Of a stretch of DNA of 64,000 nucleotides, positions 19,339 through 59,300 are shown piece by piece. Every line of letters begins with the position of its first letter. The stretch's first letter is position 1. Source of the DNA: Eledone cirrhosa (lineage: Eukaryota). The notes under the pieces were generated by a model. It saw nothing but the letters and a program-made list of their open reading frames with translations, did no database searches and was not told where the DNA came from. A program made the position numbers and the translations under genes. The DNA is taken from positions 317,936,001 to 318,000,000 of the forward strand of contig OZ024742.1 in the NCBI GenBank assembly GCA_964016885.1. The letters run 5' to 3'.

Positions 19339-20325
19339 CAATCCGGAGCTTTGTAGTTATGTAAGAGGTGTTTCCAGACGTGTGGACAACGTGTGAAGAA
19401 TTCATTTCTCGTGTTTAGGCAATCACTATTGCGTAATCTCTTTCGAATATTTATTCGTTCATCAATACATAGTCCACACGACAGATTTCCCCTTGCGTAT
19501 GGCTTGGACTTAGTGATGGCTTTCCATTGAATGGAGTAGTCTATACTTGAGTCCTTGAGGGACCATACGTGGCTCGCGAGTTTCGTGGATGAACGTCTGT
19601 CCGGGTACCTAAAGGTCTACTGGTGGTTCAGGAAGCGTTCCTTAAATCGGCCCTCCGCCATACCCACATAAGATTTGACCTCTTGTGGTTGATTTGATCG
19701 GTTAGAAGTGACCAAAGTTTCATAAACTACAGCGGGTGTGTTGCATTGCTATTGAAGGCGACAAGTTTCGGGCTTACGGCAAGAGCACCTTGGTGGGGTG
19801 TTTCTCTTAGGGCTGTTGGTGATGTGGGCCTTCATGTTCTTAGCGCAGGAGTATCCTAGTTTTACTTTGTGTCGGTTAAAGATGAAGCGGTATTTATGAC
19901 CTATGGGAAAGTGTCTATCTAAGAGGGCTAGAAATGTTTTGCCTACATTGGCTTTAACATTGAGTGAGAAGGGAGGATAGAACCAGATAGTTTGTCTATT
20001 GTTACGCTTGCTTTTCTTATTGCTGTGGTTGATAGTGGGAGAGTAAGTGATAGGTTGCGAGAAACCGCTGTCAGCTAACGCCGTGTTATAGTAGGGTGCC
20101 GCCCTGTCAAAGATAGCCTTATTAGAGGAGAGGTTTGAGATTCTAGTACTGATATTATTTACGAAGTTTCTAAAAACAGTGGGAGGGTGGCATGAAACCT
20201 TGTGAATGTAATTGAGTTTTTCGCTTAGCTTATGGAAGGGTCTGTAGGTGTGTGTGCGAAGGTCTAAATTGATGTCTAAGAAATCTACGCTAGAGAGGTT
20301 GGTAGCTACTGTTATCCTAAGTCCT
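19339..20325 (-). pseudogene. 5'-truncated Penelope-like element: RT C-terminus, Cys linker and GIY-YIG endonuclease, with two internal stops
   Basis: Manual translation: VDFLDINLDL..HPPTVF..WFYPPFS..CSCRKPETC..AVVY..YVGMAEGRFKERFLNH..CGLCIDE..LNTRNE. Confidence 0.85.
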
Positions 20326-20590
20326 GAGGTAATGAGCGTTGTTTAGTATACTGCAATATAGTGTAGAGAAATGCTCGGATGATTTAAAATGTTTCATACT
20401 TCAATGGATATTAAATTATGTTTCCATATATCAGTTCAGTGCTTCACTCTGTAGCACCACTTGGGAGTAGAAATATTGCCAAGCTGCGATTGATGCTGTT
20501 ATAGTGGTGATTTTGGTGATTATTCTTGAAAATGATTTTGAGTCATGTATATATATATACATATATATACATATATTTATATATATATAC

Positions 20591-21313: not shown

Positions 21314-24300
21314 CTACAGGATGGTATACAGAGAAGGCCCATTTACACGAGCCATTCTCGCCACTATCACCCACCTTTCATAAAACTGCCTGTGGCCAAG
21401 CACCTCTCTCTCCATTCTTATCCTTCTTCCGAAGTGATATCGGAAGAAGTAGACCAGACTATGGCCAGAGAGGAAGTTGCCTGACCTCAGACCTTTCAAT
21501 CGTGTCCACCAAACAACCTCTTTCAACATGGCTATTACGCACAGAAAAACCGCCTTTGCTTCCTTTGTGAAGAGGGGAGGCGGTTTGATTGTCATCACGG
21601 ACTCGGCGGTCAATTTAATCGGCGCCACCCGCGACAGCAGTTGTTCGGCGTAGCCCCACAGATCAGCCACGCCCGGACATTGCACCAATGCGTGCGCTAC
21701 GGTTTCTTCGTGACGCACGCATCTAGGGCAAATCTTTTTTGAGGGATCCCTGCCCGGGCGCCCGTGTCTGTAGAGCCTCTCTCGAACGGGTAGAGCCCCC
21801 CGGTAGCACTGCCAGGCCAGTGACTTCTGGAAGTTGTCCATTGGTCCTGGGCCGAAAGTCCTACCGAACAGGCTGGCCAGTTCGTCTTCTTCCATGTCCA
21901 GCGTCTCTCCAAGGGTGTCATCGCCCCTGCTAGCCACCAGCCCTCTATAGAATGATGAGGTGGATTCTCCACCGATGGCCTGGCCCGCTTGCCAGAGAGC
22001 CCTGAGCGCCTGAGCACACTCAGTGTGCCAGTCTCCCAGTTTTCCGGATCTTTGCTTGACCCAGGACTGTAGCTCGGTGAGTGAGACGAGTCTCGGAAAG
22101 GCTCGTTTCACGAACGAAGCCCACACCGGTTGACCAGTGAGGAATACCTGTAGGTGCCGTAGCCTTAATGCGTGCCTACGCATCATCAACCACGGCATCC
22201 CCAGCCCTCCTTTCGAAGGTTGTTGGCAGCAGATGGATCTTCTCACCATAGGAGGACGCTTCTTCCAAAGAAATTGGAAGAGCATGCGTTCCATGGTGGT
22301 GAGTGTTTCCTTAGGGCAAGGCACGACAGTCAGGCGGTAGTAAGTGACGGACGCTATGTAAATATTCGCCACCTCCGCCCGGCCTTTTAGGGACAGCTTA
22401 CACTTGGCCCATTTCTGGGTTAGTGCAAACACCTTGTTCGTAACCTCGTTCCAGTTCTTTTCCACCTGGAGGTCCGGTCCAAACCAGACCCCAAGCAACT
22501 TTACCGGGCCCTCCGTCCAGTGTCCGACGACACCGTCAGGAGGCATCGGCTTGCCTCTCCACGTTCCGAGTTGCAGCCCGATGGATTTTTCCCGGTTCAG
22601 TTTCGCTCCTGACAACCTTTCGTACTCCTCCAGTAAGGTACCGATCGCCTCGATCTCCGAGTCGGTTGATACCATTACTGTTACGTCATCGGCGTAGGCC
22701 GACACCGCTTTGCTCAATCCTGGTTCCAGGGGGATACCCTGCAACAACTCCAACTTCCTCAGTAAAGGCTCGAGAGTCAATACGTACAGAAGGGAGGAGA
22801 GAGGGCACCCCTGTCGAATGGATCGTGTGATTTCGAACGGCTTCGAAAGGTAGCCGTTCACCTTGATCCTAGAACAGATGTGGTTGCTATGTAGGGCAGT
22901 GATCCAGCCTCTGAAAACAGGACCGAACCCAACCGCCGCTAGCACCGCATCCAGGTAACCATGGTCGACCCTATCGAAGGCCTTAGACTGATCCAAGTTG
23001 ATCAGGGCCCCACCGAAGCCGGGTTTGTTGCCAACCCTCTCTATGATGTATCGCATGAGGTGGAGGTTATCGTGAATGGACCTGGATGGGATAGCACATG
23101 TCTGCGCATCTCCCACCAGGCCACCCACGACAAGCGCCAACCTCTTTGCTAACACCTTGGCCAAAATCTTTAACTCTGTGTTTAGCAGGGTTATGGGCCG
23201 AAAATTATTTATACTATCCCCCTTGTTCTCGTCCTTCCTCACCAGCGTGACTACGCCCTTGGCTACAGAACAAGGAATTCTCCCGTTCTGCTGCCAATTG
23301 CAGTAGACCGCTTCGAGGAGTTCGGAGAAGAAGACCGTCATTACTAAATAAAGTTCGTAAGGTATACCATCGAGACCTGGAGATTTGCGTCTGCTGCATT
23401 GGCTCAGCGCATCTCCGATCTCATCAGCCGAGATTGGTCCCTCGCAGGACTCTGCCTCTTTGTTCGAGAGACGCGGCAGGCCGTCGAGGTATGGACCGAA
23501 ATCCACGCCCCCGCCCGGACCCTCGCCTCCCCCGAACAATCGGGCAAAGTGCTTTTGAAAGGCCTCGCACATCTGCTTAGGCTCCCGGATCACTCGTCCA
23601 TCTTCGTCTTGCAACGACCGGATGGTGGATCGATTTCCACTCTTAGCTTCTGTCACGCGGGCCCATCCAACGACTTTGGCCCCCTCATTAACTAGAGCAC
23701 GTATTTTACTTCGAATGACGCAGCCTTCATGCTTTGCATCGAAAAACTGGTTCAAGGCCGTCCTCGATGCCAGCACTCTGGCCACATCTTCGCTCTTGAT
23801 TGCCTCTTCTAATTTACCTGTTAATTCTTTCTCGTTTCTATTCCTATTGGCAGCTAACATCTTGCTATAACTTATTGATTCTGTTCTAATCTCTCTTTTG
23901 AGAGATGCCCACCATCGGTTGTTGACGATTGCACCCGTCAACCTCTCCTTAACTAATCTGCTAATCCGGTTTCTGTAAGTCTCTTTTGCCGGTAAAGACA
24001 AATTAAGTTTCCAGTAACCGGGACCCTGTCTATGTGTTTTCTCGAGATTGACCACGCAGGTCACTAATTTGTGATCCGTGTAGCCAACCGTGCGCATTTC
24101 TGGACAGCTTAATATGTCCCTATCCTTACTTCTAACTAAGAATCTATCTAAGTACGATCTAGATTGACCACTGTGGTTTCTCCAAGTCCAGGTAGGCACA
24201 GTTGGAAAATCTAGTCGATATCTATCGACCAAGTTAAAACGGTCGAGTAACCCCTTGAGGCTGTTACACCCCCCTCTATTAGGACATGCTCCTGCATAGT

Positions 24301-24751
24301 CCCAACATGCATCCAGGATGTCATTCCAATCCCCCGCTAGAAGCAGGGAACGCGACGTTCCCAGAAAAGTCTCCAAACGCTGGAAGAAGTCGGGCCGTTC
24401 AGCTCCGAAAGGGGAGTAGACGGCGACCAGTCTCAAGGCCGCACTTTCACTACTGCCAACGTCTAGCACCAACAAACGACCCTCCGGGTCCGAGTGCACA
24501 ACCTGTACGGCAAGACCCAGGTGTTTTTGCAGCAGCACGACAACCCCACCCCCACCTCCAGGTTGACAGAGAGATGCATGCACCTCAAAGTCATCGAAGG
24601 TGGGGGCCAGCTGCCGCATGACGCTGATTCGAGTCTCACAGATAACCATTACATTTATACTACATGACCTGAGGTCATTTAGAAGCTTTGCTTGCTTCCA
24701 AGTTGAGCCCAGGCCACGTGCATTCAAACATCCTACTCTTAACACATCCAT
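21314..24751 (-). CDS. Tx1-type ORF2: AP endonuclease, reverse transcriptase and C-terminal zinc-binding domain (1145 aa, uninterrupted)
   Basis: LNARGL, ICET, SYLDRF, TDH; KSPGLDG, RPITLLN, KAFD, RQGCPLS, YADD; CPRC..ETVAHALVQC. Confidence 0.95.
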   Translation of the reverse strand: MDVLRVGCLNARGLGSTWKQAKLLNDLRSCSINVMVICETRISVMRQLAPTFDDFEVHASLCQPGGGGGVVVLLQKHLGLAVQVVHSDPEGRLLVLDVGSSESAALRLVAVYSPFGAERPDFFQRLETFLGTSRSLLLAGDWNDILDACWDYAGACPNRGGCNSLKGLLDRFNLVDRYRLDFPTVPTWTWRNHSGQSRSYLDRFLVRSKDRDILSCPEMRTVGYTDHKLVTCVVNLEKTHRQGPGYWKLNLSLPAKETYRNRISRLVKERLTGAIVNNRWWASLKREIRTESISYSKMLAANRNRNEKELTGKLEEAIKSEDVARVLASRTALNQFFDAKHEGCVIRSKIRALVNEGAKVVGWARVTEAKSGNRSTIRSLQDEDGRVIREPKQMCEAFQKHFARLFGGGEGPGGGVDFGPYLDGLPRLSNKEAESCEGPISADEIGDALSQCSRRKSPGLDGIPYELYLVMTVFFSELLEAVYCNWQQNGRIPCSVAKGVVTLVRKDENKGDSINNFRPITLLNTELKILAKVLAKRLALVVGGLVGDAQTCAIPSRSIHDNLHLMRYIIERVGNKPGFGGALINLDQSKAFDRVDHGYLDAVLAAVGFGPVFRGWITALHSNHICSRIKVNGYLSKPFEITRSIRQGCPLSSLLYVLTLEPLLRKLELLQGIPLEPGLSKAVSAYADDVTVMVSTDSEIEAIGTLLEEYERLSGAKLNREKSIGLQLGTWRGKPMPPDGVVGHWTEGPVKLLGVWFGPDLQVEKNWNEVTNKVFALTQKWAKCKLSLKGRAEVANIYIASVTYYRLTVVPCPKETLTTMERMLFQFLWKKRPPMVRRSICCQQPSKGGLGMPWLMMRRHALRLRHLQVFLTGQPVWASFVKRAFPRLVSLTELQSWVKQRSGKLGDWHTECAQALRALWQAGQAIGGESTSSFYRGLVASRGDDTLGETLDMEEDELASLFGRTFGPGPMDNFQKSLAWQCYRGALPVRERLYRHGRPGRDPSKKICPRCVRHEETVAHALVQCPGVADLWGYAEQLLSRVAPIKLTAESVMTIKPPPLFTKEAKAVFLCVIAMLKEVVWWTRLKGLRSGNFLSGHSLVYFFRYHFGRRIRMEREVLGHRQFYERWVIVARMARVNGPSLYTIL

Positions 24752-24784
24752 GTGGGCGGCAGAGCCAAAGGAGAGTGTAGAGAC

Positions 24785-26248
24785 CTACCTTTCCGCTTCC
24801 CGGGGTTCGGGTTGCACGACTTCCATGGGGTCGGGGGTGTTGGGTGAAGGGGTGTCTTGTGGTGGTGTGGGGTCGTCAGTGTGTGGTGGGGTTGGGGTGT
24901 TTGGAGTTGTGTTGGGGAGGGGAAGGGGAGGGGGAAAGCTTTTTAGTAGGACGCGGTTTATGGGTTTGACAGAGGGTGGTCCTACGTCCTCCTTAAAATC
25001 CTTTTTTAGTTTTTGGTAGAGGTTCATTGGGATTTTTATTAGTTTTAAATGTGGGTGGTTTTCTGACGAAACAAAGTTTACACCTTCGGTTTGTACCGAA
25101 GGATTATTGTATATGAGTTCATTTAATTTATTATTGTTTCTGTTGATGTAAGTATAGTGTAATGTCTTTTTTTCCGATGGTGTGAGTGTTTCGAAGAGGG
25201 GAGGGGCAGGTTTGGTTTTGTTTGTTGCTGGAGGGGTGTTTTCTGTTTTGTTGGATTGTGTTGCGATTTGGGTGGGGGTTGTTTGTCCTTGTGTGTTTTG
25301 CACATGTTTTCTTTTTTTCCTTTTAATCTGTCTGAAGGACTCCGTTTCTTCCTCCGAATTCGTTGAGTTATCTTCAGTGTTGGAGGGAAGAGGTATGTTT
25401 GCTGGTAATGTTTCCGTGTTGGTTTTCTTTGTGGGGGAGATGGATGTCACTATGTTAGACTGTGTTGTGTGTTGTGTCTGCGGTGGTTGTGTTGTTTTAT
25501 TGAGTGAGAGGTTGGGTGGGCCTGTATTTTGTTTTGGGGTAATGTGTTGTGACTGTTTGTGTTGTGGTGGTGTTGTGGTGTTACTGAGGGACGGGTTGGG
25601 TGGGACTGAGTTTTGTTGTTTGTTTATCTGTTGTGGTGGTGGTGGTGGAGCTGGTGTTGGTAGCAGGGTTTTCTTTTTGTTGAGTTGGGGACAAGCGGCC
25701 TTCATGTGCCCTCTGCCTGCACAGATATGGCAGGACGGCCTTCTCCCCTCCACGCTAATGTTTATATACCCGTGGTCCTCTAATAGGATTCTGTCGGGTA
25801 TTTGGGCGATGCGTTCAGGCTTCATTTGTACTACCAGCTCTATACCTGTTCCACTGAACGCATTGCCTGTGGTTTTCCCAATGGAAATCACGTTGTCATT
25901 CACTGGATCGATGAAGCCAGCTATGAGCCAGCAGTAGTCCACATCTGGCATCATTGCATCCAGCCATATGCGTTGAGTTTTTTTTCCCATATAAGATGGA
26001 TAAAAGGTGAAATTTTTCGAACGAATCGGTGACAAAGCACATTTTTTTGCCGCCGATTCGTTCTTCATGATAATTGCTAGGCTTCCATACAGTCTGTCTT
26101 TTCTTATGAAAGTTGTTTCATTCAGTACTTCTGTGAGTACTGTTTTGATATCTGCTTGAGAAGGCTGTTCAGGTTTTTTTGTACTGTTGTTGATGGTCCG
26201 AAACTTGACCGTTCGGCTTTCAATGTCTTTCGTGAATTCTTGAGGCAT
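24785..26248 (-). CDS. Tx1-type ORF1 (gag-like, CCHC zinc knuckle, Pro/Thr-rich tail)
   Basis: CHICAGRGHMKAAC; lies directly upstream of ORF2. Confidence 0.85.
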   Translation of the reverse strand: MPQEFTKDIESRTVKFRTINNSTKKPEQPSQADIKTVLTEVLNETTFIRKDRLYGSLAIIMKNESAAKKCALSPIRSKNFTFYPSYMGKKTQRIWLDAMMPDVDYCWLIAGFIDPVNDNVISIGKTTGNAFSGTGIELVVQMKPERIAQIPDRILLEDHGYINISVEGRRPSCHICAGRGHMKAACPQLNKKKTLLPTPAPPPPPQQINKQQNSVPPNPSLSNTTTPPQHKQSQHITPKQNTGPPNLSLNKTTQPPQTQHTTQSNIVTSISPTKKTNTETLPANIPLPSNTEDNSTNSEEETESFRQIKRKKRKHVQNTQGQTTPTQIATQSNKTENTPPATNKTKPAPPLFETLTPSEKKTLHYTYINRNNNKLNELIYNNPSVQTEGVNFVSSENHPHLKLIKIPMNLYQKLKKDFKEDVGPPSVKPINRVLLKSFPPPLPLPNTTPNTPTPPHTDDPTPPQDTPSPNTPDPMEVVQPEPREAER

Positions 26249-26670
26249 TTTTCCAATAAAATACCATTCTCACCTTCACTTATGTATTGTTTTGCGTCCG
26301 TGATCCTTCGTACCACATCTGAAATGTTTTCCGCTATATAAGTCAAAGATTTCTTTGTTTTCTGTGCAAATGAAATCTTGTCGTCTGCTTTGTTTTCTGA
26401 TATGGTGTTATTTTCAACTGTTATTTTTGTGTTTGTTGTGTCTTTGTTTGTGTTATTAGTATTGTCATGCAATTTTTCAAATTTTTTTTTTTCGTTGTTG
26501 GAATCCAAGTCCAGATTTATGTTTTCGTCATTTAATTTTTTCTCCGCAGATTCGTCCGTTTTTATTTTCATTTTTCCTTCCTTCTCTATGACGTTAGTTG
26601 GGAAGGAAGGGAGGACTAAAGCGTGCGAGCTTACAACTCTTACCGCTGTCCCCCCCCCCCCCCCCACCAC
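26122..26670 (-). CDS. Probable N-terminal part of ORF1, frameshifted or overlapping
   Basis: Lys/Asn-rich ORF containing SFAQK; overlaps the start of ORF1. Confidence 0.5.
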   Translation of the reverse strand: MVGGGGGTAVRVVSSHALVLPSFPTNVIEKEGKMKIKTDESAEKKLNDENINLDLDSNNEKKKFEKLHDNTNNTNKDTTNTKITVENNTISENKADDKISFAQKTKKSLTYIAENISDVVRRITDAKQYISEGENGILLEKCLKNSRKTLKAERSSFGPSTTVQKNLNSLLKQISKQYSQKY

Positions 26671-45507: not shown

Positions 45508-46152
45508 AAAGAATCATCTGTACTCCACCAACATGCTAAAATAGAACATAAGGGTAAATTAGAGAATATAGAAATAAAAATAGAATCTACACACAGAAAA
45601 GACGCAATGTTTAGACAAATCACAGAGGCAATAAACATAAATGAACTCCAACCAAAATTAAATAGAAAACATGAATGGAACAGCAACATCACAACTTACA
45701 ATTAAGGACAAAATGAAAACACACACACACATAGAACAAACAACCAACCAGTAACATGTAAATAAACAAATAAATAAACAAATATAAACACACACAGACA
45801 CCCGGATGTAACACATGCGCAAACTAAGCACACAACACACACAAAAACAAGATGGCGTAGGACAGAACAAAGGAGAAGCACAAAAACAAAGAAAAGAATC
45901 CTCAGTCACTGAAGAGGTCACAGAATGTGTGACGAAAGAACTTTGACAATATATAAACAATCGTCTGGTTGTGGAACCAACCAACTGGAAATTTATAAAT
46001 TCCTAAATTTATAAATTTAATTTATAATAAATTGAAGCGAAAGCAACTGGTGCGTGTTTGTTATTGGCAACATGACCCTCCCAAAGCATAACAATATCGG
46101 TTTCAACACACGTTTTCAGATAAAGAATCTTGCTAAAAAAATTCAGAAACGA
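45508..46152 (+). mobile_element. Penelope-like 3' fragment and pLTR (unedited sister of 52723-54077) with a hammerhead at 45905-45947
   Basis: Encodes ..QITEAINI..PKLNRKHEW; GTCA-CTGAAGA-GGTCACA..TGTGAC-GAAA-GAAC-TT-TGAC. Confidence 0.85.
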
Positions 46153-49002: not shown

Positions 49003-49519
49003 TTTCTGAATTTGTTTAGCAAGATTCTTTATCTGAAAACATGTGTTGAAACCAATATTGTTATTCTTTGGGAGGGTCATGTTGCCAATAAGAAACACAT
49101 GCACCAGTTGCTTTCACTTCAATTTATTATAATAAATTTATAAATTTCTGGTTGGTTGGTTGGTTGGTTCCACAACCAGATGATTGTTTATATATTGTCA
49201 ATGTTCTTTCGTCACACATTCTGTAACCTCTTCAGTGACTGGGGATTCTTTTCTTTGTTTTTGTGCCTCTCCTTTGTTCTGTCCTACGCCATCTTGTTTT
49301 TTGGCACAAAAACAAAGAAAAGAATCCCCAGTCACTGAAGAGGTCACAGAATGTGTGACGAAAGAACTTTGAAAATATATAAACAATCATCTGGTTGTGG
49401 AACCAACCAACCAACCAGAAATTTATAAATTCTTAAATTTATAAATTTATTATAATAAATTGAAGTGAAAGCAACTGGTGCGTGTGTTTCTTATTGGCAA
49501 CATGACCCTCCCAAAGTAT

Positions 49520-49527
<8 letters not shown>
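49001..49527. mobile_element. Inverted (head-to-head) Penelope pLTR pair, with hammerheads at 49197-49239 (-) and 49331-49372 (+)
   Basis: Both arms match 45845-46152; flanked by (TA)n. Confidence 0.85.
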
Positions 49528-49563
<36 letters not shown>

Positions 49564-49567
<4 letters not shown>

Positions 49568-50848
49568 GGAAAAGGGTGAAACGAAATTTCATTTCTCACT
49601 CTTAGTATGGCTGGTACTTAAATGTAAGTATGTATGTATACGTACATCCATATATGTATACAGACGTACAGTAGTATGTATATATATACATGCATGCACA
49701 CATATATATATGTACGTATGGGTTTACCGAACATTTATTATAATGCTCGGTTTGTTTGTAAACAATCAGCCCGTATTACGCCGTACAGTGTTCAGGCAAC
49801 CATCGTCACCTTTTTTGTTCAACACTGACACAGGAACGATGTACTAGTTTCAAGCTTATTAGCTATCGTCAGCATCGTATACCTTTCTGTCAGATGGTTG
49901 AACGTCTGAAAGTATTTACTTTCCTTATGCATATTAACCGCTGAGCAGCCTAATTTGCATATCGAGTGAGTTAGTCAGCCGGGCGCACCGAAAACGATAA
50001 ATGGAAAAGAATGAAACGAAATTTCATTTCCCACTCTTAGTACAGCTGGTACTTAAATGTAAGTATGTATGTATACGTACATACATATATGTATACAGAC
50101 GTACAGTAGTATGTATATATATACATACATGCACACATATATATAGGTACGTATGGGTTTACAGAACATTTATTATAATACTCGGTTTGTTTGTAAACAA
50201 ACAGCCCGAATTACGCCGTACAGTGTTTAGCAACCATCGTTGCCCTTTTGTTCAACACTGACACAGGAACGATATACTAGTTTGAAGCTTATTAGCTATC
50301 GTCAGCATCGTATACCTTCTTGCCAGATGGTTGAACGTCTGTCAGATGGTTGAACGGGCTGTTTGTTTACAAACAAACCGAGCATTATAATAAATGTTCG
50401 GTAAACCCATACGTACATATATATATATGTGTATGTATGTATATATATACATACTACTGTACGTCTGTATACATCTATGTATGTACGTATACATACATAC
50501 TTGTATTTATATATATATATATATAAATGTAAGTATGTATTCGTACATACATATATATGTATACAGACGTACAGTAGTATGTATATATATACATACATAC
50601 ACACATATATATATATGTACGTATGGGTTTACCGAACATTTATTATAATATTCAGTTTGTTTGTAAACAAACAGCATAAATGTCCGGTAAACCCATACGT
50701 ACATATATATATATGTGTGCATGTTTGTATATATATATACATACTACTGTACGTCTGTATACATATATGTATGTACGTATACATACTTGTATTTAAGTAT
50801 CAGCCGTACTAAGAGTGAGAAATGAAATTTCGTTTCATTCTTTTCCAT
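49564..50848. mobile_element. Tandem (433 bp period) and inverted copies of a hammerhead-bearing repeat, retrozyme/pLTR-like
   Basis: 49564-49908 is repeated at 49998-50340, and inverted copies run to 50848. Confidence 0.75.
49836..49878 (-). ncRNA. Type I hammerhead ribozyme (mutated copy at 50269-50311)
   Basis: ACGATG-CTGACGA-TAGCT-AATA-AGCTT-GAAA-CTAG-TA-CATCGT. Confidence 0.8.
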
Positions 50849-51105
50849 ATATATATATATATATTCTTCTTCACCTACTTATTCCTAAGAGGGTCGTGGG
50901 GGAAGAGTTCTCAAACACTCCTTCCAGTTGTACCTGTCAGAAGCAACCGTATCCAACTATTTTACTTTTGTCTATATTATATTTATATAGAGAGAGAGAA
51001 TCAGTCAGATCCACACAATGATCGCGTCTCGAGCTGTCCGCCGGGGAAACAATTGTAACACACAGTAAATTGAGTTCAGATGCATCACTGATTTTTCGTT
51101 TTCTA

Positions 51106-51368: not shown

Positions 51369-51449
51369 TATATATATATATATACGTTATTCCGGGTTGA
51401 ATCGGAGGTAACCACAGTAAGTAAGGTACTCAATACATAGCAGAGTATA

Positions 51450-52009
51450 ACAGTTTTAATATAGATGAGATTCTACAGGACTAGAACTGTTTCATTAATT
51501 TGAAATCATCAGGAATCTGGGTATCAAAAAATAAATATGGTATTTATAGGTCTCTACAAGTGGTAGGAGAGGGTGGGGAGTGGGATGGGTGCAGGTCATT
51601 GGTTGATAGAAAAGGGAATTCATTAAAAGCTAATTCTACAAAGCTATAGTTTATTTTTATTTTTATTTTTATTTTTATTTATTTATGTTTTTAGAGTAAC
51701 AAGGGCAGACAGAATTCTATAAACAGGTTCCGGATGGCCTACCATTCCTTGTCAATAAGTTTACTCTAAAAACATAAATAAATAAAAATTAAAATAAAAA
51801 TAAAAATAAACTATAGCTTTGTAGAATTAGCTTTTAATGAATTCCCTTTTCTATCAACCAATGACCTGCACCCATCCCACTCCCCACCCTCTCCTACCAC
51901 TTGTAGAGACCTATAAATACCATATTTATTTTTTGATACCCAGATTCCTGATGATTTCAAATGAATGAAACAGTTCTAGTCCTGTAGAATCTCATCTATA
52001 TTAAAACTA
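51450..52009. mobile_element. Inverted repeat (~245 bp arms) with hammerheads at both outer ends
   Basis: 51450-51700 is the reverse complement of 51760-52009; AGATTC-CTGATGA-TTTCAAATGAAT-GAAA-CAG..CTG-TA-GAATCT at 51942-51992. Confidence 0.85.
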
Positions 52010-52031
52010 TATATATATATATATATATACA

Positions 52032-52675: not shown

Positions 52676-52722
52676 TAGATATATATATAATTGATATATA
52701 TAAATGATTATATCTATATATA

Positions 52723-54077
52723 TAGAGAGCTCTGGTTGGATACCGTTGGCAATAAAAGGCGGGTCCTCCATTCCCATTGTGCCAGACCCATGACTTCCAG
52801 GCATCTGATCCACCGAGGCTCGGCCGTTTCGGACCATGCCGGAATCAACATACTGATTGCGGATTTGGTACGGGTGATGGGAGACGTGTCCCGCATGTGC
52901 GGCCCCGGGGGGCTGGAGAGACACGTGCAGCACTTCATCCACCGTGTGCAGTTCTCTGGCTGCAGTCGGAGAGATGGGGTCAGAGTGTATGGAGGGGCCA
53001 GAATCAGGTGGGGAGGGGTGGTAAATGGTGACATAGATGGGACCTGCCCCTTGTGTGGGAGCAGGTTTTGGAATGGAGTAGAGAGAACTGGGAGCAAGGC
53101 TGGTGGAGTGGACTCATGGTATGGTGGCAATGGGTGCCAGAGTGTGGTGTTCGTCGATACAGCCCCTGGAGGGGAATTGGCTTACAAATTTGGAGGGGCC
53201 CTGAGCAAACATGGACTCGGTATTAAGATGGTGGAGGGGCCAGATGCCTCCGTGGGGGCACTTGTTGGCAGGACATGCCCTTTTCGGGGGCCCTCATGTA
53301 TGGATGGGAAATGTGTGGCCTGTAAAATGAGCCCCCATGTTGACTGCAAGGCTGGAAATGTGGTGTATGGCATGGGATGTGCTGAGGGACAGTGTGGAGA
53401 CAAAAATGTAGTGTACGTGGGTGAGACGGCTCGTAGTGCGGGGGAACGGGTGGGTGAACACTGGCGGGACCTTCGGGATAGTAAAGAATCATCTGTACTC
53501 TGCCAACATGCTAAGATAGAACACAAGGGTAAATTAGAGAACATAGAGGTAAAAATAGAATCTACACACGGAGAGGACGCAATGTTTAGACAAATTACAG
53601 AGGCAATGGACATAAAAGAATTACAACCAAAGTTAAATAGAAGGTGTGGGTGGAACAGCAACATCACAACTTGCAGTTAGGGACAAGGGGGAGACACACA
53701 CACACGGAGCAGGCGGCCAGCCGGTGGCATGTAAATAAACAAATAAATAAATGAACATAGGCACACACAGACACCCGGATGTGGCGCATGCGCAGACTGA
53801 GCACACAACACACACACAGAAACAAAATGGCGTAGGACAGAACAAAGGAGAGGCACAGAAACAAGGAAAGGAATCCCCAGTCACTGAAGAGGTCACAGAG
53901 TGTGTGACGAAAGAACTATGACAATATATAAACAACTATCTGGTTGTGGAACCAACCAACCAACCAGAAATTTATAAATTTATAAATTTATTATAAATTT
54001 ATTATAATAAATTGAAGTGAAAGCAACTGGTGCGTGTGTTTCTTATTGGCAACATGACCCTCCCAAAGTATAACAAT
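52723..54077 (+). mobile_element. 5'-truncated Penelope-like retroelement (RT thumb, GIY-YIG, pLTR), A-to-G hypermutated
   Basis: ORF 52691-53680: CVACK..DCKAGNVVY..YVGETARS..ERVGEH..QITEA..PKLN; (TA)n on both sides. Confidence 0.9.
53880..53922 (+). ncRNA. Type I hammerhead in the Penelope pLTR
   Basis: GTCA-CTGAAGA-GGTCACA-GAGTG-TGTGAC-GAAA-GAAC-TA-TGAC. Confidence 0.8.
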
Positions 54078-54195
54078 ATATATATATATATTTATTAAAA
54101 TAACAGATTAAAGTTTAAGCAAAGAATCGCTGCTTTTGATATATATTTATCCTTATCGAGCCCTCTTTGGATTTTATTCTTCAAATTTATATTAT

Positions 54196-57712: not shown

Positions 57713-57840
57713 GATACGCGCACACGTCAGATTTTTATGTAACACTCCTTATTTTATGTAACCTATCTTTGCAATGCCCCACCACCACTCTCGTTCTGCT
57801 TTGTAGCAAATTTTAAAAATCATTATTATTTGTTTTACAG

Positions 57841-58350
57841 CTTTGTTGCTAATGGCCACAGGAGATGTGTGTGTTATGTACGGCCGACAGAAGGGAGACA
57901 GAAGCCAGCTGTATCCTACAGACACTTTTGGAACTGACTATGTCATTATGACTCCCAGCACGTCTATAAATATATCTTCAACGGTTTACATCTTACCACA
58001 AGGTATTCCAAAAACTTTGACCAATGTCACATTGACTGTCAACAGTAACAGTTCTCTGTGCGACTTACTTATCTGCGGATTTGGAGATACCGAGTTCAAT
58101 TACACCATTAAACCAAATGAGGTTCTAGCCTTAGACGATGGCAATTTGATGGACGGTGTGAAAATAAGCGCCAGTCGACCAATCGGAGTTCTTGTTGCTG
58201 GTATATCATCTTATGATCCACGAAATGGCACTGTGTGTTTGGAACCTCCAATATCCACTTCGGAAATGTTGCCACCAGTTAATACGTGGGGTAAAATGTT
58301 CGTTGCTGTACCATTGACGCCAGAAATCCGTGTCACTCTGAAAATTACAG
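57841..58350 (+). CDS. Host gene exon, IgGFc-binding protein N-terminal domain (FCGBP-like)
   Basis: Acceptor tgttttacAG, donor GTAAGG; 510 nt, phase 1-1; QLYPTDTFGTDYV, ISASRPIGVL, EMLPPVNTWGKMF. Confidence 0.85.
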
Positions 58351-58380
58351 GTAAGGATGTCATTATTATAATTATACATA

Positions 58381-59300
58381 GGGCGTGGATTGGCAGTATC
58401 GTTAGAGAGGCGGACGCTATGCTTTGCAGCATAGAGTTACGGCCCTTTATGATCTGAGTTCAAATCCCGCCGAGGTTTACTTTGCCTTTTATCCTTACGG
58501 GGTCGATAAAATAAAGTACCAGTCACGCACTGGGGTCGATTTAATCGACTTTCCTCTCCCCAAAAATTGCTGGCCTTGTGCCTATATAAGAAACAATTAT
58601 TATAATTATACATAGGGCGGTGGATTGGCAGTATTAGTAGAGGGTCGGGCGTCATGCTTTGCAGCATTGAGTTACGGCCCTTTATGATCTGAGTTCAATT
58701 CCTGCCAAGGTTAACTTTGCCTTTCATCCTTACGAGGTCGATAAAATAAAGTACTAGTCACGCATTGGGGTCGATCTAATCGACTTTCCCCTCCCCCAAA
58801 ATTGATGGCCTTGTGCCTATATAAGAAACTATTATTATAATTATATGCGGTGGATTGGCAGTATCGGTAGAGGGTCAGACGCCATGCTTTGACGTATAGA
58901 GTTACGGCCCCTTCCATTCTGAGTTCAAATCCCGCCGAGGTCAACTTTGCTTTCATCCTTACGGGGTCGATAAAATAAAGTACCAGTAATGTACTGGGTA
59001 ATTGCTGGCCTTGTGCCAAAAGTAGAAACAATTATAATTATACACACAATGTATAAACATTGTATTATTACTAAGAGCATTAAAGGTGGGTGAATGGCAG
59101 CATCGGTAGAACATCGAACACCTTGCTTCATGGCATAGGGTTACGGCCCTTTACGTTCTGATTTCTAAGCCCGCTGATGGTAGATTTGTCTTTCATCCTT
59201 ACGGAGTCGATAAAGTAAAGTACCAGTAATGCTCTAAGCTCGATTTAATCGACTTTCCTCTCCCCCAAAATTGTTGGCTTGTGTGTAAATCTGAAACCAT
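58381..59300 (+). mobile_element. Tandem array of four tRNA-derived SINEs
   Basis: A box TGGCAGTATCG, B box GAGTTCAAATCC and (ATT)-rich tails; copies start at ~58381, 58614, 58847 and 59084. Confidence 0.9.

What the first reader, a model, noticed from the sequence alone, without database searches (positions are those of the whole stretch)
52723..53900. Penelope copy with massive one-way A-to-G hypermutation: probable genomic fossil of ADAR hyper-edited RNA
Seen: manual alignment of 53483-53900 with the sister copy 45508-45925 gives roughly 40-45 A>G differences against about 1 G>A and a handful of others, in clusters (e.g. AGAACAAACAACCAACCAGTAAC vs GGAGCAGGCGGCCAGCCGGTGGC). The third copy at 49303-49527 mostly has the A state where it overlaps. 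The ORF is Gly-rich, and odd residues revert to typical ones by G>A (HCARP from HYTKP, inferred; NRRCGW vs NRKHEW, seen), so A is ancestral. Known: ADAR converts A to I in dsRNA, RT reads I as G, and coleoid cephalopods have very high editing. Inference: the RNA was hyper-edited and then reverse-transcribed into the germline genome, i.e. ADAR acting as a heritable mutator or restriction factor on retroelements.
Basis: partly seen in the sequence, partly recalled or inferred. Interest (0 to 1): 0.92.

Follow-up and report, generated by a model that had tools for sequence, protein, structure and literature searches.

The report
ADAR-edited Penelope retrotransposon copies in genome
A young jumping-gene copy carries 170 one-way A-to-G changes in the pattern of the RNA-editing enzyme ADAR, and eight more copies in the same genome do too, so edited RNA was most likely copied back into the genome.

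Summary
Confirmed, and larger than reported. Window 52726-54079 is a 5'-truncated Penelope-like retrotransposon copy. Against 78 sister segments it has 170 sense-strand A>G changes, 1 G>A and 3 T>C; at every site at least 80% of sisters have A. Other divergence from the nearest sister is 0.9%.

Neighbour bias is 5' T>A>C≥G and 3' G, as published for ADARs. Eight more independently edited insertions were found, in a family with about 4,850 motif matches. The nine pool to 964 A>G versus 12 T>C.

In four insertions the two head-to-head arms share 218 of 226 edits, all in sense polarity. The changes therefore predate arm duplication, which argues against mutation after insertion and suggests one RNA molecule supplied both arms.

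Best reading: ADAR hyper-edited RNA was reverse-transcribed into the genome (0.88). Not shown: raw-read or PCR confirmation, inosine, ADAR dependence, any restriction role, the cephalopod identity.

Precedents are edited exogenous proviruses and APOBEC-edited ERVs. Ten paper searches found no report for inherited transposon copies. This scan noted the same pattern earlier in L1 and ERV copies of other genomes.

The parts
52726..54079 (+). 5'-truncated Penelope-like retrotransposon copy (end of RT region, linker Zn finger, GIY-YIG endonuclease, 3' repeat), inserted between (TA)n tracts
   Evidence: BLAST to sisters ends at 54079; sisters continue 5' of the junction while the window turns into (TA)n; sister ORFs of 690-780 aa
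52738..53865 (+). Hypermutated span: 170 sense-strand A>G; 32-60% of A's per 100 bp in 52700-53499, 13-25% in 53500-53799
52727..53680 (+). Still-open reading frame; 101 of 317 residues differ from sister L060; edits fall at codon positions 1/2/3 as 62/147, 42/127, 48/119
53880..53923 (+). Hammerhead-like motif (two stems flanking conserved core-like words; motif recalled), unedited in this copy
   Evidence: centroid fold has the expected topology but z -0.9; Rfam did not report it
53866..54079 (+). Unedited 3' part of the element
   Evidence: 0 edits after 53865
45508..46097 (+).
49045..49527 (.). Head-to-head pair of short unedited 3'-end copies. They match only the 3' end of the edited copy (about 53825-54079), which holds one edit, so they cannot be the local duplex partner for the edited span

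Best explanation
A sense transcript of this Penelope-like family became double-stranded. The partner could be a read-through head-to-head locus or an antisense transcript (inferred). A host ADAR turned about a third of its adenosines into inosines. The element's reverse transcriptase then copied the RNA into a TA-rich site, reading I as G, and stopped early. The result is a truncated, missense-laden copy. This happened at least nine independent times in the family. Where an insertion has an inverted second arm, both arms come from the same edited molecule. Shown: direction, strand, context, recurrence, arm sharing, host ADAR-type genes. Inferred: the duplex, inosine, which ADAR acted, and germline timing.
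For: 170 A>G versus 1 G>A and 3 T>C. Pooled over 9 insertions, one arm each: 964 A>G, 12 T>C, 18 G>A, 23 C>T, 55 transversions. Pooled 5' neighbour: T 321/716, A 451/1357, C 113/791, G 62/620 (p 5e-64). Pooled 3' neighbour: G 261/664 versus 0.24-0.25 for the others (p 3e-13). Human ADAR1/2 order is 5' U>A>C>G with 3' G first (PMC3113232, passages). Arms share 37/37, 48/51, 103/107 and 30/31 edits, all A>G in element-sense. Different insertions overlap only partly, e.g. window versus L098: 64 shared, 100 and 69 private. They sit at different loci and in two subfamilies. Edits are spread over all three codon positions (33-42%), with no excess at third positions. Edited tracts are bounded blocks, e.g. 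L144 1930-2268 and L143 2598-2742 in the L060 frame. 18 of 57 position-ordered loci hold both orientations within 3 kb, so antisense sources are common. The host has A_deamin domains at four places; one exon carries all three catalytic-type motifs (motif names recalled).
Against: No raw reads or PCR confirm the locus. No RNA was examined. The duplex partner is not identified, and four copies (L096, L099, L130, L131) have edit blocks ending well before the 3' end, which a simple head-to-head hairpin does not predict. PMC5625713 (passages) says invertebrate hyper-edits favour A downstream, with reduced 3' G in octopus. Here raw counts also have A commonest (332 versus 261 G), but G is enriched after normalising. 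Background A>G in other copies also leans 5' A/T over C/G about two-fold (that control still contained L101's 61 edits). Most edited copies were found with A>G-biased queries, and the antisense control had low power (0 matches, about 1 expected). Gene conversion or a later DNA duplication could also make the arms alike.
Confidence: 0.88

Rival explanations
1. An unknown adenine deaminase acted on the sense DNA strand while it was single-stranded during integration, before arm duplication.
For: It would give the same polarity and could also give shared arms. Sequence alone cannot tell RNA from sense DNA.
Against: Both neighbour preferences match ADARs. Recalled TadA-type DNA editors prefer a 5' pyrimidine, but 5' C is disfavoured here (0.14). 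No natural animal enzyme of this kind is known to me (recall).
Confidence: 0.05
2. The reverse transcriptase itself mis-copied adenosines, through nucleotide-pool imbalance or a DGR-like adenine-specific error.
For: It predicts sense polarity, one-step origin and shared arms.
Against: The change is A>G only (964 versus 13 A>T and 6 A>C), whereas DGR errors are A-to-any (recalled). Unedited copies show A>G at about 0.01 per site. Edits come in bounded blocks and follow ADAR context.
Confidence: 0.03
3. The copies were mutated after insertion, for example by ADAR acting on the DNA strand of an R-loop (recalled activity) or by biased gene conversion.
For: ADAR context would be expected in the R-loop version.
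Against: One transcript crossing head-to-head arms would mark them independently and with opposite polarity. Instead 218 of 226 edits are shared, in the same element polarity. GC-biased conversion would also raise T>C, which is only 12.
Confidence: 0.02
4. Assembly or sequencing artefact, for example edited cDNA entering the assembly.
For: No raw-read alignment is available. The known trace artefact produces mismatch clusters (PMC2873906, passages).
Against: Nine loci, each with a different edit set, lie in ordinary genomic flanks, and six have inverted arms. That artefact concerns G>A. Run X1 holds 0.50 of 161 sampled words while only 0.32 of words are edit-free and 0.36 have at most one edit. 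This is weak: the run's kind is unknown, it may be the assembly's own sample, and the excess vanishes if two-edit words are allowed (p 0.19).
Confidence: 0.02

Closest known systems
ADAR-type A-to-G hypermutation recorded in exogenous proviruses (RAV-1, avian leukosis virus, HTLV-2/STLV-3 per review PMC8586724, passages; BLV per PMC8025556, passages)
   Same: Edited RNA is reverse-transcribed and the A>G cluster is fixed in integrated DNA.
   Different: Those are infections or cell culture; the BLV clusters are about 70 bp in U3. Here the element is a non-viral transposon in an assembled genome, with tracts up to 1.4 kb, found nine times. The 1994 and 1995 primary papers were not held.
APOBEC 'DNA editing' footprints in vertebrate LTR elements (PMC4866542, passages)
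   Same: A host deaminase leaves a strand-biased, context-biased hypermutation in inherited retroelement copies.
   Different: APOBEC gives G>A from C-to-U on cDNA. That screen covered LTR elements, filtered for G>A rather than A>G, and found its 19 invertebrates devoid of editing. Here the change is A>G in a Penelope-like element.
ADAR hyper-edited RNA in repeats across animals (PMC5625713, passages)
   Same: Dense A>G with 5' G depleted, in repeats able to form duplexes; strongest in octopus and frog.
   Different: Those are RNA-versus-genome mismatches and are not inherited. Here the edits are in the genome sequence itself.
Endonuclease-bearing Penelope-like elements, Neptune/Nematis-type linker (PMC8557442, PMC11167929, passages)
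   Same: RT plus C-terminal GIY-YIG, CCHH and linker Zn-finger motifs, 5' truncation, adjacent inverted copy, AT-rich targets.
   Different: No edited copies are described in the passages seen, and a Penelope + ADAR + A-to-G + retrotranspos search found 0 papers. The clade was not placed by tree.

Membership tests
EN+ Penelope-like element | Single ORF with RT and C-terminal GIY-YIG endonuclease | tested here: met
   Sister ORFs of 690-780 aa. Pfam RVT_1 is weak, E 0.0035, under cut-off, and no GIY-YIG hit. Atlas neighbours at 0.95-0.98 carry RVT_1, HTH_animal and GIY-YIG.
EN+ Penelope-like element | [quoted passage not shown] | tested here: met
   Read by eye in sister translations; definition from PMC8557442
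EN+ Penelope-like element | 5' truncation, adjacent inverted 5'-truncated copy, partial tandem repeats | tested here: met
EN+ Penelope-like element | Hammerhead ribozyme in the terminal repeat | tested here: inconclusive
   Topology in the centroid fold, z -0.9; no Rfam hammerhead hit
EN+ Penelope-like element | RT phylogeny within a named PLE clade | not tested
   No reference PLE proteins were fetched
ADAR hyper-editing | A>G only, on the transcribed (sense) strand | tested here: met
ADAR hyper-editing | 5' neighbour U>A>C>G | tested here: met
   0.45/0.33/0.14/0.10 pooled; in the window copy alone C and G tie at 0.14; reference order
ADAR hyper-editing | 3' neighbour preference | tested here: met
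   3' G 0.39 versus 0.24-0.25, as in human ADARs; differs in emphasis from the invertebrate group of PMC5625713
ADAR hyper-editing | Long double-stranded RNA substrate | tested here: inconclusive
   Inverted arms are common in the family, but no partner is identified for any edited copy
ADAR hyper-editing | Host encodes ADAR-type deaminases | tested here: met
   PF02137 at four places; catalytic-type motifs; dsRNA-binding domains were not located
ADAR hyper-editing | Inosine in the RNA and dependence on ADAR activity | not testable with these tools
   Needs RNA data or loss-of-function
APOBEC DNA editing | G>A on the sense strand | tested here: not met
   1 G>A in the window copy, 18 pooled
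Diversity-generating retroelement mutagenesis | A to any base (recalled) | tested here: not met
   964 A>G versus 13 A>T and 6 A>C

The most novel reading that the evidence does not exclude
In this animal ADAR acts as a germline anti-retroelement mutator, filling the role APOBEC3 has in mammals. Most edited Penelope RNAs fail to integrate, and the 0.2-2% of copies seen are crippled survivors. Their edits serve as single-molecule barcodes showing that Penelope's inverted double insertions are built from one RNA molecule.
Probability: 0.2. Interest if true: 0.9.

Novelty: new variant of a known kind. Interest (0 to 1): 0.76.

Why it matters
It is direct sequence evidence that RNA edits can become inherited DNA changes through retrotransposition. 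A 2016 review says a role for ADAR in mutating retroelements 'has not yet been determined' (PMC4982230, passage, said of Alu). The copies record ADAR activity and site preference in the cells that transmit the genome. They make the question countable genome-wide. The barcode observation also constrains how Penelope elements build inverted insertions, a step PMC11167929 leaves among those not yet validated.

Tried and rejected
Family state G with G>A in the sisters: rejected. Inherited subfamily variants: the two subfamilies differ by 10 A>G columns, so copies were re-scored against their own subfamily, and 91-145 edits remained in the long ones. Local duplex with the inverted copies at 49045-49527: they cover only the nearly unedited 3' end. 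Fine-scale clustering: not above context-matched permutations. Pfam found nothing in the edited ORF. Rfam found no hammerhead, only hairpin-type chance hits. Antisense double T>C motif: 0 matches, too little power to count. Among 170 screened segments none had a T>C-only excess; the top one had 11 T>C with 10 G>A. Sequencing runs: no RNA holder listed; small-share rows were not used. No near-identical second copy of the window insertion was among the best 40 scored. Earlier scan notes for this genome or sequence: none. Three look-ups for the two primary retrovirus papers failed. No supplements were read; those of PMC4866542 may hold A>G cluster counts that bear on novelty.

Full report
Observation. 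Two searches of the own genome (3.0 Gb, 1796 contigs) gave 58 other loci with 78 distinct sister segments (only the best 40 of 926 and 1499 candidates were scored, and 30 loci were returned each time). Against these the copy has 170 A>G between 52738 and 53865, 1 G>A, 3 T>C, 3 C>T and 5 transversions. Columns with fewer than 10 sisters were skipped, and 3 columns without a 70% majority were set aside. At each edited site 80-100% of sisters have A. Apart from A>G, the nearest sister differs at 12 of 1361 sites, so the copy is young and the A>G load is not age.

What the element is. [quoted passage not shown] Pfam support is weak. Atlas neighbours carry RT, HTH_animal and GIY-YIG. The 3' repeat has a hammerhead-like fold that Rfam does not confirm. 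The family is large: 3349 exact matches to an unedited 18-mer and 4849 to an editing-neutral 23-mer. The window copy is 5'-truncated and sits between (TA)n tracts, so no target duplication can be read. Its frame stays open, as A>G cannot create a stop from a sense codon, but 101 of 317 residues differ from sister L060.

Context. In the window copy the edited fraction by 5' neighbour is T 56/100, A 86/191, C 16/111, G 12/87. By 3' neighbour it is G 42/89 against 0.27-0.35 for the others. Pooled over nine insertions: 0.45, 0.33, 0.14, 0.10 and 3' G 0.39 versus 0.24-0.25. This is the order measured for human ADAR1 and ADAR2 (PMC3113232). Against this: background A>G leans the same way at 5' about two-fold, in a control that still held L101, though it is flat at 3'. 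PMC5625713 reports downstream A rather than G for invertebrates; raw counts here agree with that (332 A, 261 G) while normalised rates favour G.

Recurrence. Eight further edited insertions were found. L096 (91/905 A's), L098 (138/551) and L099 (39/293) came from the similarity searches. L097 (133/460) came from a triple-edit motif (5 matches, 4 insertions). L130 (92/410) and L131 (126/512) came from a double-edit motif (2 matches). L114 (145/399) and L101 (30/172) came from 30 position-ordered loci picked with an editing-neutral pattern. Each was scored against its own subfamily. Edit sets overlap only partly, with odds ratios of about 2-11 for most pairs, as expected of independent events sharing site preferences. 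Frequency is rough: at least 9 insertions; 1 of 100 and 0 of 100 listed neutral-pattern matches had two G's in the motif; 2 of 30 fetched loci were edited somewhere. The two edit motifs caught no insertion in common, so the list is incomplete. I estimate tens of insertions, 0.2-2% of copies, more if short blocks count.

Timing. Four insertions have an inverted arm that overlaps the edited block. The arms share 37/37, 48/51, 103/107 and 30/31 edits, all A>G in element-sense. In two others (L130, L131) the arm lies outside the block and is unedited. A hairpin transcript edited on both arms, or damage after insertion, would give independent patterns of opposite polarity. So the edits were in a sense-strand template before the second arm was made, and both arms trace to one molecule. 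The data do not separate copying one RNA twice, cDNA fold-back, or later conversion. PMC11167929 shows a PLE protein cleaving and extending both target strands in vitro, which fits the first option.

Mechanism. The host has A_deamin domains at four places, one exon with all three catalytic-type motifs. 18 of 57 position-ordered loci hold both orientations within 3 kb, so duplex RNA should be plentiful (inference). Edits come in bounded blocks that differ between copies, as a variable partner length or a template switch would give. No edit in any of the nine lies beyond position 2779 of about 2852 (L060 frame). Two copies have edits in the hammerhead-like core yet were inserted. ADAR editing followed by reverse transcription explains all the tested features; rivals are scored separately.

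Limits. Raw-read or PCR confirmation is open. Run X1's share of 0.50 exceeds the 0.32-0.36 of words with at most one edit, but this is weak and possibly the assembly's own sample. The host taxon was not determined. Nothing here shows that editing lowers transposition.

Novelty. Ten full-text searches (listings and abstract starts seen) found no report of ADAR-type hypermutated transposon copies fixed in a genome; two searches returned 0 papers. I read passages only, and no supplements, of PMC4866542, PMC2873906, PMC11167929, PMC8557442, PMC5625713, PMC3113232, PMC8586724, PMC8025556 and PMC4982230. Subscription papers are not covered. The principle is known from exogenous proviruses, and its G>A counterpart from APOBEC. 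Three earlier notes of this scan describe the pattern in L1 and ERV copies of other genomes (unchecked). Verdict: real, a new variant of a known kind, interest 0.76.

Noticed in passing
window 21314-26269 (-): Apparently intact LINE: a 494-aa frame followed by a 1156-aa frame with endonuclease, RT and zf-RVT Pfam hits. A candidate family for the same A>G screen.
   Followed up: partly
window 57807-58457 (+): Frame with an IgGFc_binding domain, E 1e-16; probably an exon of a host gene near the element.
   Followed up: partly
window 19749-20342 (-): 197-aa frame that looks by eye like a piece of another Penelope-like family; no Pfam hit.
   Followed up: no
L142 and L143 (L060 frame 2657-2690): Edits change the hammerhead-like core words in both arms of two insertions. 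An intact core in the final template was not needed, or cleavage came before editing.
   Followed up: partly
all nine edited insertions, L060 frame 2780-2852: The last ~70 nt of the element are never edited although rich in A and T; possibly protein-bound, unpaired or not RNA-templated.
   Followed up: no
L145:1455-1711: A separate short segment with 17 of 92 A>G and 3 T>C beside an edited insertion; a tenth edited copy or another subfamily. Not counted.
   Followed up: no
L109, L112, L116, L125, L126, L128, L129, L143: Many subfamily-2 copies share a tandem repeat of about 60-90 bp near the 3' end (frame about 2453-2542), marking a sub-lineage.
   Followed up: no
window 49560-50850 and 51400-52010: Several local inverted duplications of non-Penelope sequence between (TA)n tracts.
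   Followed up: no
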